30,931 nt of DNA, from NCBI GenBank assembly GCA_041946735.1, contig JBHGAY010000042.1, forward strand, positions 1 through 30,931, in the 5' to 3' direction. Source of the stretch: Candidatus Eiseniibacteriota bacterium (GTDB taxonomy: Bacteria; Eisenbacteria; RBG-16-71-46; CAIMUX01; VGJL01). A program made the position numbers. Positions 9,001 to 15,000 of the stretch are shown here, piece after piece. Within the stretch, counting starts at the first letter, position 1. Each line of letters begins with the position of its first letter.

Positions 9001-12000
9001 TGCCCGCGTTCCTCCGCGGGATCTCTCCGTTCACGCTGAACTACTGGGCGAACGATGGGTATCGCAGGATCCTGTTCGACTCGTCGGGGATCGGCGCGGT
9101 CGCGCCGCACGTGGGGGTCCTGGCCGGCGCCGGCGTCGTCCTGCTGGCGGCCGCCGTGGTGCGGCTGCGCCAGCGCCTCGGGCAGGGCGCGTGACGATGG
9201 GCCCGCTGCTCTCGATCGCGCGCACCGACCTCCGGCTCACGCTGAAGGAGCGCTCCACGCTCGTCTGGATGTTCGGGATGCCGATCCTCTTCGTCTTCTT
9301 CTTCGGGACGGTCTTCGGCGGCAGCTCCGGTCCGCCTCCCGCCACACGCCTCGGCATCTCCGATCGCGATGGCTCGTTCCTCTCGGGAATGTTCGTGGAG
9401 CACCTCCGCTCGGAGGGACTCGATCTGGACCTGCTGCCGGCGGGGCGCGCCGACAGCGTGGCGGCCCGTCGCGCGGCGCAGAAGCCGGCGGAGGGCGACC
9501 CGGCGCGGGTGCTCACGATCCCGGCCGGCTTCGCGGACAGCCTTTCCTCGGGACGCCGGGCGCCGGTCGAGATGGCGAGCGCGAGCGGCGCGGGCGGCGC
9601 GAGCGACGAGCGGGACATGATGGCCCAGGTGCATCTCTATCGTGCGATCGCACGGACGCTCGCGATCCTCGCCGAGATCGACACCGCCGCGGCGCCAGGG
9701 ATGGTTCGGCCGGAGGATCCCGCGTTCCAGACGCGCTATCGCGAGCTTGCCGCGCTGCCCGATCCGATCGCGACCGTCGTGACGACGGCGGGAAAGGGAC
9801 GGGCGGTGCCGAGCGGCTTCGCGCAAAGCGCGCCGGCGATGCTGGTCCTCTTCATGCTGATGAACACGGTCATCTATGGCGCGGCCTTCCTCACGCAGGA
9901 GAAGCAGAACCGATGCCTGCGCCGCGTCGAGTCGGCGCCGGTCACGCGCGGGCAGCTCCTGGGCGGAAAGCTCCTCGGCCGGCTCGGGATCGCGATGCTC
10001 CAGGCGGTCGTGCTGCTCGCCGCCGGGCGGCTGCTCTTCGGCGTCTACTGGGGGAACAGCGCCCTCGGCTTGGCCGTCCTGCTCGTCTGTCTCGGTCTCG
10101 CGTGCGCCTCGCTCGGGCTCCTGCTTGGATCGATCCTGCGGAGCGAGGAGCAAGCTTCGGCGCTCGGCTGGATCGTCCCGCTCTTCCTCGGCGCGATCGG
10201 CGGGACCTGGTGGCCGCTCGAGATCGTCCCGTCCTGGATGCGCGCCGCGGGACACGTCTCGCCGGCCGCCTGGGCGATGGACGGACTGCACGGCCTGATC
10301 TCCTTCGGCCGCGGCGCGGCCGCCGTCACCGTTCCCGCGCTCGTGCTGCTGGGCTTCGCCGCCGCGTTCTTCGCGGCGGGGGCGCGGTTGCTGAGGACGG
10401 AAGCGGAGGGCTGATCCGGTATCGCGGCCGCGGAAGACCGAAGCGGGGAGCTGGCGGCACATCGCGGCCGGTAGGCTGGCAAGCAGAAGCGTGCGAGGAG
10501 AGGGACGCTGCCTCTTCCCGCACGCTTCGTGGTTCGGGCCGCGCGGAACGCGCGCGACAGAGAACCGCGGCCGCTACTTCGCGAGCACCGCCGCCCGCCG
10601 GTAGACCACGTCCCCCGCCTGCAGCGAGTAGAAGTAGGTCCCCGCCGGGACGTTGCGTCCCGCCTCGCTCGTTCCGTCCCAGACGATCTCGTGGTGGCCG
10701 GCTCCGACGCGGCCGTCGATCAGCCGCCGCACGAGCCGTCCCTGCGCGTCGTAGACGGAGAGCTGCACGTCATCCTCGTACTTCAGCTCGAAGGAGAAGG
10801 TCGTCGCGGAGCGGAACGGGTTCGGCCGGTTCTGCTGCAGGCGCGTCCCCAGTCCCTGGCCGGACTCGGCGACGTCGCTCGAAGGCGTCGTCACGAGGAA
10901 CGAGTAGGAGGCGGCCGGCTCGGTGCGCGGCATCCCCTCGCGGCGCCCGGTCAGATCGACCGCGTGGATGTAGTAGTCGACCCTCGTCCCGTTCGGCTGC
11001 GGCGGGATCTCGTAGCGGTACCAGTCGGCCGGCTGATCGGGGCTCAGCGCCGAGGCGGTGAACGCCGGCGGCGGCGTCCCGTCCGGATAGGCGCGCCAGT
11101 AGACGAGCAGCGAGTCGGAGAGGAGCCCCGCCTCGCTCCGGTCGTCGATGAACGCGCGCACCGGGATCGCGGCATAGCGATCCCAGGAGACGATCGGGGT
11201 GTGGCCGACGCGTAGCATCTGGAAGTCCGGGATCCCCATCACGCGGCAGTGGATCGCGTCGTCGGAGAGCCAGCTTCCGGTGAAGCCGATCACCTCGTAG
11301 CCCGGCATCGCGTCGCGATAGACCTGCAGGGCGTTCGCGTCGTGCGGGTTCAGGTTGAAGGTCGGCACGAGCACCTTGTCGTTCAGGATGAGCGAGTTCG
11401 TGTAGGAGGCGACGTCCGAACCGCCGATGCTCGCGCAGTAGACGCGCACGACGCGATAGTTCCGGCCGGTCGAGCTTTGCAGCGAGGCGAGGAGCGTGGC
11501 GTCCTGCTCGCACCGCTGATAGTCCGCGTGGCTTTGCGCGACCTGCTTCACCACGATCGTCTCCTCGTCGAGCATTTTCGCCCAGCAGTCGATGTGGTGG
11601 ATCCCGCCGGCGGAGACGTCGGGGACGACGTTGTAGCTGACGAGGCCGTAGTAGTCGTGCATCAGGTCGAAGATCTGCTGGTGGGTCATCCCGCCGTTCT
11701 CGTCCCACACCAGAGTCGTCTGGAACGAGAAGCCATAGCCGTCCGTCATGTAGTTGCCGCCGGTGTTCCAGAGGCTGTGCGTGTGGACCGGCAGGCCCCA
11801 GTGATCGCCGCAGACGATCGGGATCAGGTTGTCGTTCGGACGGTACGGGCGATTGTAGTAGTGGTCGATGATCGCGATCTCCCCGTTGCCGTCGTAGACG
11901 AACCAGGGGCCGTAATCGCGCGTCCAGTAGCTGTCGGAGTTCGCGAGGATCCAGTCGACTGCGTCCGGATCGACTCCGTTGGACTGGAAGGCGTTCCGGG

Positions 12001-15000
12001 CCGTGTTGTAGGAGGACTGCGAGACGACGCAGGAGATCTGCACGTGCTCCGCCATTTCCCGGATCAGCGAGTACGGGATCCCGAGCGGATAGCGGATCAG
12101 CGCCTTGATCATCGGCTCGTACTCGGCGCAGTTGCGGACGGGGGCGAGGGGCGGCGGATCGTCCCGGAGATTCTGCTGGGGCGGCACGCCGCCGTAGGCG
12201 TCCCGCTCTTCCGGCGTCTCCCATTGCGGCAGCTGAGGCGCGAGGTGGTCGGTGTCCCACTGCCATCCCGGGCCGGGGACGATGACCGGGGTCTCGGCCG
12301 GAGGGCTGCCGGAGGCGAGGACGAAAGCCGGAGCAAGGAGCGAGGCGAAGATCGGAGCGGCGAGAAGCGAGAGGCCGAGCGAAAGGATCCGGAGACGCCG
12401 GAGGACGTTGCGAAGCATGAGCTTTCCTCCACGGATGTTGTCGGGCTCGCCCCCTGCGTTCGGGGCGAGCCGCTTCAGGCGATGCTCTCTCTCCGGCGAT
12501 CGCGAGCGACGCGCGGACGACGCGCGGACGACGCGCCCGCCGATCGCACGGAAGCGTTTCAATTCTAGCAGATTCCGGGCTCGGGGGATCAGGGAGACAG
12601 GGAGTCAGGGAGTCAGGGGGGCCCAGGAGATCAGGGAGCCAACGCGCGCCCCCCCGGCCGGGAGCCGGCGCGATGGGCCTTCTCGAGGAGGGAGTGGATC
12701 TTCCCGACGAGCGACCGGACGTCGATCGGCTTGTGCACGAGGCCGTCCGCGCCCAGGGCGTGGACCTCCGCCTCGCGCTCCGGCCGCGCGTCTCCGGTGA
12801 CGACGAGGACGCAGGCGAGCCGCAGGGCCCGGATCGCAGGCAGGCGGCGGAGAACCTCGGCGCCGTCCATGTCAGGGAGCATCAGATCGAGGAGAAGCAC
12901 GTCGGGGTCCCGGTGCATCAGCGCCTGGATCGCCTCGTTGCCGCCGGCCGCGGCGAGGACCTTTGCTCCGTACTGCTCGAGGAGGAGAGCGGTCGAGCGG
13001 CGCGTCGTATCGTGATCCTCGACGAGCAGGATGCGAGCCCCGGCGAGGCAGCGGTCGTCCGAGGACGATGCGGTGCCGAGCGAGTCCGTTTCCGCGTCTT
13101 GCTCCTGCTCCGGCAGACGCTCCTGCGACCCGGCCACCGTCGCCTCGGGAAGATGCAACCGGAAGCAGCTTCCCTTCCCAGGCTCGCTCTCGACGGACAT
13201 CCGCGCGCCGATCGCCTCGACCAGCCGCTTGCAGATCGCGAGCCCGAGGCCGGTCCCCTTGCTTCGGTCCCGTTCCGGATTCCGGAGCTGCAGGAACTCG
13301 TCGAAGATCGCGTCGATCTCGCGTGCCGGGATCCCGATCCCGGTGTCGGCGACGTCGATGCGGACTCCCCCGTCCCCGTCCCGGTCCCGTGCCACCGTCA
13401 CCTGCACCGACCCCGCATCGGTGAACTTCAACGCATTGCCGATCAAGTTGGTGACCACGCGGGCGAGCTTCAACCTGTCGGTGCGCAGGCGCAGGCCTTC
13501 CGTCTCTGCCTCGAACGCCAGCGAGAGCGCCAGGCCCTTCTGCCTGGCGGTAGGGAGGAACTGCCGGATCTCGGCATCGAGGACCGCTCGCAACGAGAAG
13601 TCGCTCACGTTCAGCTCCTGGCTGCCGGAGTCGAACCGCGTGAGGTCGAGGACGTCGGAGACGAGCTCGACCATCGATCGCGAAGCGTTCTGGAGGTCAG
13701 CCGCGAGCTGCTGGATCTCGGGCGATGCGGGATTGCTCTCCGAGAGCCGGCGGATCAGCTCGGAGATCAACGTGATCGCGTTCGCCGGGGTGCGGATGTC
13801 GTGGGAGACGGCGGCAAGGAAGTGCGTCTTTCGCCGCGATCCTTCCTCGGCGGCCTTGCGGCGCTCCGCGATTTCCTCGTGGAGCTGGAGCATCTCGAGG
13901 ATCAGGGCACATTGCGCCGACAGCCACTCGATCGCCCGGAAGTCCTCCTCGGTGAATTGGTGGGGCGTCCTGCGATAGACCTCGAACACGCCCGCCGCGC
14001 GCCCCTGGATGCGATACGGCGTTGCCAGGATCGCCCGGATCGGAGCCGCTCCGTCGGGAGTCGGAAGCTCAATGTCGGGACGCAGCGCGAGATCGAACAA
14101 CGCGGCGGTCCGCCCGCGCTCGAGGACGATCGAGGCGAAGGAGCGATCGTAGTCCCAAGACCGCTGCGCGATGGGATGGGAGCCGCTCCATGTATGCACG
14201 AAGATCTTGTCGCCGGAACGCATCGTGACGCCCGCGGCGCCGTCCGGCCCTCCGAGCATCTTGCCCGCGACCCGGCAGATCTCCTCGATCGCCTGCTGCG
14301 GCGACGGCAGGGTCCGGGCACAGCGCAGGAGGACCTGCAGGATCTCCTCGCGCCGGGCGAGATCGGCGTTCGCCGCCACCATCTGCTCGGATCGGATGCG
14401 CAGCTGCTCCGCCTGGGACTCCATCTCCTCGGCCTGCGCCTGCAGCTCGGTATTCTGGCGCGTGATCTCCTCGGTCTGCGCCTGCAGCTCCTCGTTTTGC
14501 CGCCGGATCTCCTCCTCCCGCGCCGAGAGCTCTTCGTTCGCTTCGGCCAGCTCCGCGTTGGATCGCGCGAGCGAGGCGTTCGACGATGCGAGTCGCTCGC
14601 CCCTCGCCGCGGACCGGTCACGGTAGAGGTTGACCATCTCGATGATCACCGCCATCAGGACCAGGTTGGCGATTTGTAGAGCGGCAAAGGAGACCGCCTC
14701 GGAGCCGCGCTCGCCGCCGCGGGTGTACATCTGAATCCCCTTCGCCACGATCATCCCGAGGAACACGACCGCCGTCGATCGATGGAGGACCCGGTGGCGG
14801 TGCCAGAGTCCGAGCGTCAGCAGAAGCCCGTAGCCGATCGGCACGTACTGGTGCCCGTAGAGGACGAAGCGAAGGACGGCCATGAGAATGGCGCCGATCG
14901 CCGTCACGACGATGGCGAGCTCGAGCGACGGGCGCGCCCGGACGCGGACCGCCTCTACTGCCGTCATGCGTCGCCTCCCGCTTCGAGCTGGAAGATCGAG

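What a model noticed while it worked through the whole genome (the two positions that open the first line are those of the whole stretch)
10574..12418. A PPAD-type secreted peptidylarginine deiminase with gingipains and glutaminyl cyclase in a free-living Eisenbacterium
g02861 is 33% identical over 491 residues to the Porphyromonas gingivalis peptidylarginine deiminase (PPAD) but only 21-26% to agmatine deiminases, and carries a T9SS sorting domain; the genome also has 16 gingipain-like C25 peptidases (Kgp- and Rgp-like, with pro-peptide and Ig domain) and an animal-type glutaminyl cyclase next to sprA. I read g02861 as an extracellular peptide-citrullinating enzyme working with Arg-specific gingipains, as in P. 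gingivalis. If true, the gingipain-PPAD-QC-T9SS set thought special to an oral pathogen is an old environmental protein-scavenging toolkit.
Evidence so far: Swiss-Prot: PPAD PG_1424 33.2%, 491 aa, E 2e-80 (query 81-566, subject 42-516 of 556); next best AguA 21.5%, E 2e-12; Pfam PAD_porph 117-397 + FlgD_ig 540-601; g03253 36% to Kgp over 679 aa (E 1e-120), g01086 34% to RgpA (E 6e-100); g01602 beside SprA 27% to animal QPCT(L). PDB sequences: PPAD 4yt9 E 2e-78 over query 86-501 including the Ig-like domain; next family 1xkn only E 7e-13; blocks DSYWTRDY, TGGNYMTDGYG, HHIDCW, YTNSLILN and DAIHCR are shared; that these hold the catalytic Asp/His/Asn/Cys is recalled. Papers call PPAD 'unique' (abstracts, call 123).
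(Added by a program. Inside this text positions count along the whole contig: contig position 1 is position 1 of the stretch shown here. "Call 12" and the like, gene names such as g00115 and contig names such as C1 are that model's own, and its searches are not shown. The text may have been shortened before it was handed on; [...] marks where a part breaks off. The agent that wrote the report below was given it as the finding of a first reader that could run no searches.)

Follow-up and report, generated by a model that had tools for sequence, protein, structure and literature searches.

The report
Secreted PPAD-family deiminase, environmental variant
This gene encodes an exported relative of the arginine-to-citrulline enzyme PPAD of the gum pathogen Porphyromonas gingivalis; PPAD turns out to be one twig of a large environmental family that often sits next to arginine-cutting gingipain-like protease genes.

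Summary
Window 10574-12418 (-) encodes a 614-aa protein: signal peptide, PPAD-like catalytic domain, PPAD-like Ig domain, T9SS C-terminal tail. It is 33% identical to genuine PPAD over 499 residues and its model superposes on PPAD at TM 0.95. Agmatine deiminases are far weaker matches.

In a tree PPAD nests inside a large environmental family, split from AguA-like proteins by a long branch. All 48 family rows keep the two arginines that hold the substrate's C-terminal carboxylate in PPAD; 0 of 7 AguA-like rows do.

One defining PPAD feature fails. Michaelis-loop Tyr233 is Gly here, as in about half of the family.

This genome has 16 C25 matches (one is PorU), two of them with RgpB's Arg-binding Asp, and a glutaminyl-cyclase-like gene beside sprA. 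In relatives, 13 of 79 loci have a C25 gene directly adjacent and co-directional, often RgpB-like.

Best reading (0.6): an exported deiminase for C-terminal arginines left by Arg-specific peptidases. Substrate is untested. Environmental gingipains are already known; the deiminase partner was not found in the papers searched.

The parts
10574..12418 (-). Whole gene: 614 codons plus stop. It encodes a PPAD-family deiminase precursor.
   Evidence: ORF and translation. Homologues of 597-615 aa cover 100% of it. It is the only PAD_porph match in the 4.89-Mb genome.
12311..12418 (-). Signal peptide, about aa 1-36 (basic RRLR, then a hydrophobic stretch, then small residues ASG). The exact cleavage site was not determined.
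   Evidence: Read from the sequence. The model shows a helix at 2-24 with low confidence. No signal-peptide predictor was available, so this is an inference.
12164..12310 (-). N-terminal segment, aa 37-85, ahead of the PPAD-aligned core. It occupies the position of PPAD's short pro-fragment.
   Evidence: The PDB and BLASTP alignments start at aa 81-89. pLDDT is 47-91 in this stretch. A pro-fragment role is an inference.
11222..12163 (-). Catalytic domain with a five-bladed alpha/beta-propeller fold (guanidino-group modifying enzyme fold), aa 86-399.
   Evidence: Pfam PAD_porph 117-397. PPAD 4yt9 E 2e-78. Foldseek to PPAD: TM 0.95, rmsd 1.9 A.
11246..11926 (-). Span holding the active-site and substrate-binding residues, given as query residue = PPAD residue: W165 = W127, D168 = D130, R190 = R152, Y192 (extra residue), R193 = R154, T219 = T180, G221 = G182, G272 = Y233 (changed), H275 = H236, D277 = D238, C278 = C239, N341 = N297, C391 = C351.
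   Evidence: Alignments to PPAD. Residue roles are taken from PMC4487231.
10889..11221 (-). Ig-like beta-sandwich domain, aa 400-510, equivalent to the IgSF domain of PPAD.
   Evidence: The sequence alignment to PPAD runs through to aa 501-507. The structural alignment covers 434 columns of a 422-residue chain. The model has all-beta strands at 402-509.
10826..10888 (-). Flexible linker, aa 511-531.
   Evidence: pLDDT is below 50 at 518-523.
10577..10825 (-). C-terminal T9SS sorting domain (type A CTD, read by Pfam as FlgD_ig-like), aa 532-614.
   Evidence: TIGR04183 scores 26.1 bits (cut-off 23) and the PorU C-terminal part matches at 5e-9. FlgD_ig scores 1e-11. The same PorU-tail segment matches about 45 other ORF ends in this genome, this gene included. 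14 of 15 C25 ORFs end in it.

Best explanation
The gene encodes a Sec-exported, T9SS-sorted member of the PPAD family of guanidino-group deiminases.

Proposed steps:
- After export, a Cys391-His275-Asn341 triad, with Asp168 and Asp277 gripping the guanidinium, converts an arginine side chain to citrulline and releases ammonia.
- Arg190 and Arg193 hold the alpha-carboxylate and the preceding carbonyl of the substrate. The preferred substrates are therefore arginines at the C-terminus of peptides.
- Such ends are produced outside the cell by Arg-specific, RgpB-like C25 peptidases. This genome encodes two candidates.

The enzyme belongs to a 'Gly-type' subfamily in which PPAD's Michaelis-loop Tyr233 is glycine. 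Its exo-specificity may therefore be looser than PPAD's.

Shown: domain architecture, residues, fold, family placement, and gene linkage in relatives. Inferred: secretion, substrate, and the partnership in this organism.
For: Family placement:
- 33% identity to genuine PPAD over 499 residues, E 4e-87.
- PDB sequence search gives PPAD at 2e-78 and the best non-PPAD chain at 7e-13.
- The AF2 model (pLDDT 91.8) matches seven PPAD entries at E 1e-47 to 3e-50, TM 0.93-0.95 and rmsd 1.8-2.3 A across the catalytic and Ig domains. Agmatine deiminases reach E about 1e-21 and TM 0.73-0.80.
- The AguA equivalog model TIGR03380 scores 57 bits against a cut-off of 381.8.
- In a 55-row tree the 48 PPAD-family rows split from 7 AguA-like rows by a branch of 3.21 changes per column with SH-aLRT support of 100. 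PPAD nests among Bacteroidota and Cloacimonadota rows. The query sits in a clade supported at 99 with Krumholzibacteria, Fibrobacteraceae-labelled and Eisenbacteria rows.

Residues:
- R152 and R154 are kept in 48 of 48 family rows and in 0 of 7 AguA-like rows. T180 is Glu in 7 of 7 AguA-like rows.
- Across 142 cluster representatives, H236, D238, N297, C351 and G182 are kept in 142, D130 in 141, R152 in 133 and R154 in 134.
- Residue roles come from PMC4487231: R152 is indispensable and both arginines bind the C-terminal carboxylate.

Export:
- The T9SS tail passes the TIGR04183 cut-off.
- PorU is present above its cut-off, and the tail is shared by about 45 ORFs.
- SprA is present.

Partnership with C25 peptidases:
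- 2 of 15 C25 ORFs in this genome (L133, L137) keep RgpB's Asp163 plus the catalytic His and Cys. L137 matches RgpB at 1.6e-66 and its pro-domain at 7.6e-25. The role of Asp163 is from PMC4357240.
- In relatives, 17 of 79 loci hold a C25 ORF within the stored flanks, and 13 of these are directly adjacent and co-directional.
- 5 of the 13 adjacent pairs involve Gly-type deiminases, and in 4 of those 5 the C25 neighbour carries the Rgp Asp.
- The L049 neighbour matches RgpB at 8e-84 with E152, D163, H211, C244, Q282 and W284 all kept.
- All 5 carriers sampled from other lineages have 5-32 C25 matches. None of the 14 control genomes has any.
Against: - Tyr233 of PPAD is Gly272 here. In PPAD this residue binds the substrate carboxylate and blocks C-terminally extended substrates. 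There is also one extra residue (Tyr192) between the two arginines. The geometry of the carboxylate site could therefore differ.
- I could not inspect the model's coordinates.
- In this window the neighbours are unrelated: an ABC-2 transporter, a hybrid histidine kinase, CheR and FTCD.
- The link to C25 counts inside the phylum is confounded. C25 occurs in 121 of 121 genomes, while the deiminase occurs in 25 of 121, and carriers are concentrated in the query's order plus three other families.
- T9SS evidence is incomplete. PorV-like barrels fall below the cut-off (111 bits against 250). GldM_1st was not found in this 94.8%-complete genome.
- No family member outside Porphyromonas has been assayed, as far as the papers read here show.
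Confidence: 0.6

Rival explanations
1. It is a secreted protein-arginine deiminase of broader specificity. With glycine in place of Tyr233 the active-site rim is open, so internal (endo) arginines of proteins and peptides are citrullinated as well as C-terminal ones.
For: [quoted passage not shown] The query has Gly at this position. So do 111 of its 120 closest relatives, 25 of 142 cluster representatives and 40 of 79 GTDB loci.
Against: Both carboxylate-binding arginines are strictly kept in the Gly-type rows, which argues that a free carboxylate is still recognised. Gly-type genes sit beside RgpB-like peptidase genes, which make C-terminal Arg ends. His274 is invariant in the 24 Gly-type rows, though not in the single Ser-type row. 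Either it or the inserted residue could replace the Tyr; this was not tested.
Confidence: 0.17
2. It is an extracellular deiminase for free L-arginine or another small guanidino acid. It would release ammonia for nitrogen supply or pH control and would not modify peptides.
For: The Arg pair binds an alpha-carboxylate, which free arginine also has. Goulas 2015 notes that arginine deiminases share the two arginines. The loss of Tyr233, which also contacts the peptide amide nitrogen, could shift preference.
Against: In PPAD, R154 bound to the preceding peptide carbonyl is named as the main factor for preferring peptidyl-arginine over free arginine, and R154 is kept here. The overall fold is PPAD-like with an open funnel, not the closed site of AgDI and ADI as described; I did not check this on the model's coordinates. 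Repeated adjacency to endopeptidase genes fits peptide substrates.
Confidence: 0.12
3. It is an agmatine deiminase, as public annotation of its relatives says ('agmatine deiminase family protein'), working in polyamine metabolism.
For: Sources name relatives 'agmatine deiminase' or 'agmatine/peptidylarginine deiminase'. Pfam PAD_porph covers both kinds.
Against: - TIGR03380 scores 57 bits against a cut-off of 381.8.
- The protein is exported, whereas AgDIs have no extra domains.
- The Glu found in 7 of 7 AguA-like rows at the T180 position is absent, and so is their GDTD[GS]H loop.
- The two arginines would face agmatine's amine; that this disfavours binding is an inference.
- No carbamoylputrescine or carbamoyltransferase genes lie nearby.
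Confidence: 0.03

Closest known systems
PPAD, peptidylarginine deiminase of Porphyromonas gingivalis (PG_1424; PDB 4YT9, 4YTB, 4YTG, 5AK7, 6I0X)
   Same: The order of parts is the same: signal peptide, short N-terminal segment, propeller catalytic domain, Ig-like domain, T9SS C-terminal domain. Identity is 33% over 499 residues, and the model matches at TM 0.95. W127, D130, R152, R154, T180, G182, H236, D238, C239, N297 and C351 are all kept. Both fall in the same clade against AguA-like proteins.
   Different: Tyr233 of the Michaelis loop is Gly. The neighbouring loop reads A-G-G-I-H-H, where PPAD reads G-E-Y-I-N-H. One extra residue (Tyr192) lies between the two arginines. The query sits in a different subclade, the Gly-type grade, whereas PPAD lies in the single Tyr-type clade of 23 of 48 rows (one change on the tree). 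The host is an uncultured Eisenbacteria-like organism, not an oral Bacteroidota. Activity is untested.
Agmatine deiminase AguA/AgDI (TIGR03380; PDB 2JER, 3HVM, 6NIB, 1XKN)
   Same: It has the same Pfam family (PAD_porph), the same propeller fold and the same Cys-His-Asn triad with two Asp.
   Different: Identity is about 22%. Matches are E 1e-6 to 1e-13 by sequence and TM 0.73-0.80 by structure. AgDIs have no Ig domain, no signal peptide and no sorting tail. AguA-like rows lack R152 and R154 and carry Glu at the T180 position and a GDTD[GS]H loop. By the description in PMC4487231, AgDIs have closed active sites.
Vertebrate and cyanobacterial PADI enzymes (Pfam PF03068, e.g. human PAD4)
   Same: They carry out the same chemistry on peptidyl-arginine. 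They have equivalent catalytic and arginine-pair residues, and a small residue (Ser or Thr) where PPAD has Tyr233, as listed in PMC4487231. In that one respect the Gly-type resembles PADs.
   Different: They are a different family, Ca-dependent, with N-terminal Ig domains. A published tree places them phyletically apart from pPAD-type proteins (PMC8826395). I made no sequence comparison here.
T9SS type A cargo proteins (RgpB, PorU and others)
   Same: The C-terminal beta-sandwich tail passes TIGR04183 and matches the PorU tail. Foldseek also hits PorU 6za2. PorU and SprA are present in the genome.
   Different: Pfam reads the tail better as FlgD_ig than as Por_Secre_tail (1e-11 against 0.0087). 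PorV-like proteins fall below the cut-off and no GldM match was found. Secretion is untested.

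Membership tests
PPAD family (Porphyromonas-type peptidylarginine deiminase in the strict sense) | Propeller catalytic domain with the Cys351-His236-Asn297 triad and the guanidinium-binding Asp130 and Asp238 | tested here: met
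   C391, H275, N341, D168 and D277 align to these residues. They are invariant or nearly so in 142 representatives.
PPAD family (Porphyromonas-type peptidylarginine deiminase in the strict sense) | Arg152 and Arg154, which bind the substrate's C-terminal carboxylate and preceding carbonyl | tested here: met
   R190 and R193 align to them, with one inserted residue (Y192) between. They are kept in 48 of 48 family rows and 0 of 7 AguA-like rows.
PPAD family (Porphyromonas-type peptidylarginine deiminase in the strict sense) | Michaelis-loop Tyr233, which caps the carboxylate and excludes internal arginines | tested here: not met
   Gly272 aligns to Tyr233. The loop has the same length. Gly is found in 111 of the 120 closest relatives.
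PPAD family (Porphyromonas-type peptidylarginine deiminase in the strict sense) | Ig-like domain directly after the catalytic domain | tested here: met
   The sequence alignment runs to aa 501-507. The structural alignment covers both domains at TM 0.95.
PPAD family (Porphyromonas-type peptidylarginine deiminase in the strict sense) | Falls in one clade with PPAD, apart from agmatine deiminases | tested here: met
   The 48-row family clade has support of 100 and is separated by a branch of 3.21, with PPAD nested inside it. The tree is a quick IQ-TREE search with SH-aLRT support only and a long outgroup branch.
PPAD family (Porphyromonas-type peptidylarginine deiminase in the strict sense) | Citrullinates C-terminal arginine of peptides without needing calcium | not testable with these tools
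Agmatine deiminase (AguA, TIGR03380 equivalog) | Score above the curated equivalog cut-off | tested here: not met
   57 bits against 381.8.
Agmatine deiminase (AguA, TIGR03380 equivalog) | AguA-type pocket residues: Glu at the PPAD-T180 position, a GDTD[GS]H loop and no arginine pair | tested here: not met
   The query has T219, the loop AGGIHH, and R190 and R193. All 7 AguA-like rows have E, GDTD[GS]H and no arginines. Those 7 rows themselves score below the TIGR03380 cut-off (191-265 bits), so they are 'AguA-like' and not proven AguA.
T9SS cargo with type A C-terminal domain | C-terminal sorting domain at the extreme C-terminus, plus an N-terminal signal peptide | tested here: met
   TIGR04183 scores 26.1 bits against a cut-off of 23 at aa 532-607 of 614. 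The tail is shared with 14 of 15 C25 ORFs. The signal peptide was read by eye.
T9SS cargo with type A C-terminal domain | A T9SS is encoded in the same genome | tested here: inconclusive
   PorU is above its cut-off and SprA_N is above its cut-off. PorV-like proteins fall below the cut-off. GldM_1st was not found. PorK, PorL and PorN were not searched.

The most novel reading that the evidence does not exclude
The Arg-gingipain plus PPAD pair is not an invention of an oral pathogen. It is a widespread and possibly ancient extracellular module of anoxic-habitat protein degraders across the FCB bacteria and Thermoplasmatota archaea, often encoded as an adjacent gene pair. Citrullination of peptide C-termini, with release of ammonia, would then be a regular and so far unmeasured step in environmental protein turnover. 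The Gly-type enzyme, to which this gene belongs, would be the older form, and PPAD's Tyr233 exo-lock a later refinement.
Probability: 0.35. Interest if true: 0.75.

Novelty: new variant of a known kind. Interest (0 to 1): 0.6.

Why it matters
Reviews up to 2026 still call PPAD a unique enzyme, with homologues only in P. gulae and P. loveana (PMC13539308 and PMC11756583, passages read).

The family has 684 clusters at 50% identity with E <= 1e-30. It spans many FCB phyla and some archaeal MAGs, and the substrate-carboxylate-binding arginines are conserved throughout.

The repeated adjacency to RgpB-like peptidase genes gives an independent, non-clinical argument that cutting after Arg and then deiminating the new C-terminus is a functional unit.

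Three things follow:
- The natural role of PPAD-type enzymes becomes testable in harmless environmental proteins.
- Natural variants at the specificity-determining loop are available for study of exo versus endo citrullination.
- An unmeasured reaction in sediment protein degradation is flagged, in habitats where C25 peptidases are already known to dominate exported peptidase genes (PMC6752024).

Tried and rejected
- Agmatine deiminase reading: rejected on the equivalog score, pocket residues, export signals and gene context.
- Longer TTG start at 12562: rejected, because the extra 48 residues are not signal-like and homologues match the ATG form.
- Local operon with gingipain, QC or T9SS genes: looked for and not present in the window.
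- 'Q-rule' link to glutaminyl cyclase (Gln straight after the signal peptide): by eye only 1 of 15 C25 N-termini (L130) shows a Gln after a plausible cleavage site, and this protein does not. No predictor was available, so the point was left open.
- GldM search: no match. PorV: only below the cut-off.
- Reading the model's active-site geometry around Gly272, Tyr192 and His274: not possible, because coordinates are not exposed.
- Paper searches for an environmental PPAD-gingipain link found nothing relevant. 'Eisenbacteria' plus 'gingipain' gave 0 papers. The 'PPAD homolog' wordings gave 5 papers, all oral or medical. Gingipain plus FCB phylum names: none of the 15 papers listed holds 'gingipain'. 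'Arginine deiminase' plus 'gingipain' plus 'sediment' gave 42 papers, and the 15 listed are all clinical.
- Supplementary figure S4 of PMC8826395, which may already show part of this family, could not be seen.
- Not used: complex prediction, sequencing-run tools and the protein atlas.

Full report
**The gene**

Window 10574-12418 on the minus strand is an intact 614-codon ORF in DNA of about 69% G+C. An in-frame TTG 48 codons upstream exists. The ATG form is the one matched end to end by homologues of 597-615 aa.

The protein begins with a basic and then hydrophobic signal-like segment. I read this by eye, because no predictor was available. Domain searches give:
- Pfam PAD_porph at 117-397 (4e-33) and FlgD_ig at 540-601 (1e-11).
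- NCBIfam T9SS type A sorting domain at 26.1 bits, above its 23-bit cut-off.
- The agmatine deiminase equivalog at 57 bits, far below its 381.8-bit cut-off.

It is the only PAD_porph gene found in the 4.89-Mb, 94.8%-complete genome.

**Comparison with PPAD**

Against PDB sequences the five best hits are all P. gingivalis PPAD chains (2e-78 to 6e-77, query 86-507). The next family, putative and proven agmatine deiminases, starts at 7e-13.

To compare with the real protein I fetched a natural PPAD gene. A primer printed in Goulas 2015 found three metagenome stretches. L111:732-2399 encodes 556 aa identical to PDB 5ak7 over residues 48-484.
- BLASTP of the query against this PPAD gives 167/499 identities (33%), E 4e-87.
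- BLASTP against a Bacteroidales AguA-like protein gives 22% over 269 residues, E 2e-12.

An AlphaFold2 model built on an 84-row alignment has mean pLDDT 91.8. Foldseek places seven PPAD entries first (E 1e-47 to 3e-50, target TM 0.93-0.95, rmsd 1.8-2.3 A, about 430 columns covering both the catalytic and Ig domains). Agmatine deiminases follow at E about 1e-21 and TM 0.73-0.80. PorU matches the tail.

**Residues**

Goulas 2015 (PMC4487231; passages and section 8 read) defines the following in PPAD:
- the triad C351-H236-N297;
- D130 and D238 for the guanidinium;
- R152 (indispensable) and R154 for the C-terminal carboxylate and the preceding carbonyl;
- Y233 on the 'Michaelis loop', which binds the carboxylate and would clash with a C-terminally extended substrate.

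The paper lists no equivalents of the arginine pair or of Y233 for agmatine deiminase.

In the query all of these align and are kept (W165, D168, R190, R193, T219, G221, H275, D277, C278, N341, C391), with two differences. Y233 is Gly272, and one residue (Tyr192) is inserted between the two arginines.

**The family**

A full HMMER scan of 1.84 billion cluster representatives gave 684 with E <= 1e-30. The best 150 all scored 289 bits or more, above PPAD's 267-270 bits.

Of the 151 sequences I took (the query plus the 150 hits), 149 matched and 142 had a match longer than 350 positions. Across those 142:
- H236, D238, N297, C351 and G182 are invariant.
- D130 is kept in 141, R152 in 133 and R154 in 134.
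- Position 233 is Tyr in 100 and Gly in 25.

Among the 120 closest proteins (47-100% identity), position 233 is Gly in 111 and Tyr in 9. At least 83 carry the one-residue insertion, counting only the 15 commonest patterns that were printed. Sources name these proteins 'agmatine deiminase', 'agmatine/peptidylarginine deiminase' or 'T9SS type A sorting domain-containing protein', from Eisenbacteria and Krumholzibacteria MAGs.

The best 80 (79 loci, E <= 1e-94) come from Krumholzibacteria, Eisenbacteria, Fibrobacteraceae-labelled, Ignavibacteria, Zixibacteria, Cloacimonadota, Gemmatimonadota, Neomarinimicrobiota, Bacteroidales, Armatimonadota and Thermoplasmatota/Euryarchaeota MAGs.

**Tree**

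The tree has 55 rows:
- the query;
- PPAD;
- 46 rows from 44 other loci, which I picked for taxonomic spread (43 of the 79 GTDB loci, so 36 were left out, plus L116; second copies from L041 and L044 are included);
- 7 AguA-like outgroup proteins from Bacteroidales genomes. Seven of the 8 loci were used, because L122 gave no phmmer hit. All score below the AguA cut-off.

It was built with IQ-TREE 'quick' under LG+C20 and has SH-aLRT support only. The results are:
- The PPAD-type rows are one side of a branch of 3.21 changes per column, with support of 100.
- PPAD nests in an 11-row group of Bacteroidota, Cloacimonadota and Armatimonadota rows. Its best identity is 48%, to a Bacteroidales MAG protein.
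- The query lies in a different clade, supported at 99.

Tyr at position 233 defines a single clade of 23 rows (support 90.5; one change on the tree). The 25 non-Tyr rows (24 Gly, 1 Ser) form the grade nearer the outgroup. Because the root lies on a very long branch, 'Gly is ancestral' is only a suggestion.

**Export**

The genome encodes PorU above its cut-off (596 bits against 420). The PorU tail segment matches about 45 other ORF ends, this gene's included. SprA_N is present. PorV-like barrels score below the cut-off, and GldM_1st was not found. Earlier notes of this scan on other pieces of the same genome reached the same view of the tail. Secretion through a T9SS is thus likely but not shown.

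**The proposed partners in this genome**

Of 16 C25 matches one is PorU. The other 15 ORFs (L129-L143) show:
- the same C-terminal tail in 14;
- Propeptide_C25 in 11;
- the C25 Ig-like domain in 4.

L137 matches RgpB at 1.6e-66 and the RgpB pro-domain at 7.6e-25, with Kgp at 7e-16. RgpB Asp163 makes the salt bridge to the P1 arginine (PMC4357240, passage read). In my alignment 2 of the 15 ORFs (L133, L137) keep that Asp together with the catalytic His and Cys, and six lack the aligned His.

The M28 gene directly downstream of sprA matches bacterial glutamine cyclotransferases (6qql 2e-39, 7cje, 6qro, 4fuu). Human QC scores 3e-8.

None of these genes is near the deiminase gene. Its neighbours are an ABC-2 transporter, a hybrid kinase, CheR and FTCD.

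**Linkage in relatives**

This is the new evidence. Using an HMM built from the 15 C25 domains, 17 of the 79 GTDB loci hold a C25 ORF within the stored flanks (at most 4 kb each side, and many contigs end sooner). The arrangement is:
- 13 are directly adjacent and co-directional, with frame-to-frame gaps from -18 to 201 nt.
- 2 are adjacent and divergent.
- 2 lie 2.1-2.5 kb away.

Twelve neighbours have the three key positions aligned, and 6 of them keep Asp163, His and Cys. A seventh has the Asp motif, but its contig ends first.

The neighbour in an Ignavibacteriales MAG (L049) matches RgpB at 8e-84 and its pro-domain at 3e-31. It keeps E152, D163, H211, C244, Q282 and W284.

The 79 loci split into 40 Gly-type and 39 Tyr-type. 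Of the 13 adjacent pairs, 5 are Gly-type (4 of them with the Rgp Asp) and 8 are Tyr-type.

For immediate neighbours I estimate a chance rate near 1%, based on 10-16 C25 genes among roughly 4000 genes. This is my own arithmetic, not a tool result. Related genomes are not independent, but the pairs occur in several phyla and in both gene orders.

**Co-occurrence**

In 121 genomes sampled across the phylum (one of them, G015, is unpublished and is a non-carrier), 25 carry the deiminase at E <= 1e-30. These are all 21 of the query's order (G000 included) plus 4 genomes of three other families. Families f5, f8 and f6 have 0 of 45, 0 of 26 and 0 of 7.

C25 is present in 121 of 121. The difference follows lineage, so it is weak evidence.

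Five carriers reached through other loci have these C25 counts: two Bacteroidales 15 and 10, a 2.0-Mb Euryarchaeota-labelled MAG 32, an Eisenbacteria genome 16, and a Gemmatimonadota genome 5. None of the 14 control genomes has any.

**What is known**

- PPAD reviews still call the enzyme unique, with homologues only in P. gulae and P. loveana (PMC13539308, PMC11756583; passages read).
- A 2020 preprint calls it the only characterised PF04371 PAD.
- Gingipain-like C25 genes make up more than 40% of signal-peptide-bearing peptidase genes in estuarine sediment. They are reported from Thermoprofundales and Bathyarchaeota (PMC6752024).

I found no paper on a deiminase partner in searches. That is a limited search of an open-access library.

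**Verdict**

The gene is a genuine member of the PPAD family and a new variant at the specificity loop. Its most likely job is to deiminate peptide C-terminal arginines made by Arg-specific C25 peptidases outside the cell (0.6). A looser, endo-capable specificity is the main rival (0.17).

Noticed in passing
L075, L076, L078, L083, L086, L089, L090, L095, L105, L116 (deiminase ORFs): The published natural PPAD 'T2' variant G231N/E232T/N235D (PDB 6i0x; papers listed, titles and abstracts seen) has exactly the loop N-T-Y-I-D-H. That loop is the rule in PPAD's nearest environmental relatives: 10 rows from Bacteroidota, Cloacimonadota and Armatimonadota. The common PPAD loop G-E-Y-I-N-H is the odd one in that group.
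   Followed up: partly
L065:3890-5635, L066:4016-5839, L070:1373-3136, L092:364-2121: The homologues in Thermoplasmatota/Euryarchaeota-labelled MAGs have signal peptides. Instead of a T9SS tail they end in a PKD-like stretch followed by a short hydrophobic tail with a shared 'RFP[IVY]L' motif. This looks like a lineage-specific archaeal anchoring signal. One such MAG (G123, 2.0 Mb) has 32 C25 matches.
   Followed up: partly
L041 (two ORFs), L044 (two ORFs): Two PPAD-type genes lie in tandem in a Krumholzibacteriota MAG and in an uncultured bacterium. One L044 copy has Ser at position 233 and Asn in place of the guanidinium-binding D238, so it may be inactive.
   Followed up: no
own genome: L129, L134, L135, L138, L139, L143 (C25 ORFs): Six of the 15 gingipain-like ORFs lack a His at the position aligned to the catalytic His of RgpB, although most keep the Cys. 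They may be inactive, adhesin-like family members, or the alignment may be off in that region.
   Followed up: no
own genome C14:35722-43040 (-): The sprA-like gene (a frame of about 2085 aa) is followed directly by a glutamine-cyclotransferase-like M28 gene. A Gln straight after a plausible signal-peptide cleavage site was seen by eye in only 1 of 15 C25 N-termini.
   Followed up: partly
window 16142-17833 (-): A full-length three-domain formiminotransferase-cyclodeaminase (FTCD_N, FTCD, FTCD_C) lies here. This is the bifunctional architecture best known from animals. It sits upstream of the CheR and hybrid-kinase genes.
   Followed up: no
window 26719-30931 (-): A BatA/VWA - DUF58 - MoxR-type AAA cluster of the 'Bat' aerotolerance-operon type runs off the window end.
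   Followed up: no
window 1167-2681 (-): The quinolinate synthase NadA domain occupies only residues 203-501 of a 504-aa frame. The roughly 200 N-terminal residues are either an extension or an over-long start call in this high-GC DNA.
   Followed up: no
L109:1327-2625: The PPAD primer also hit a freshwater-type metagenome contig with a 432-aa ORF. phmmer with the query's deiminase domain returned no hit for it at E <= 1e-5, and it was not looked at further.
   Followed up: no
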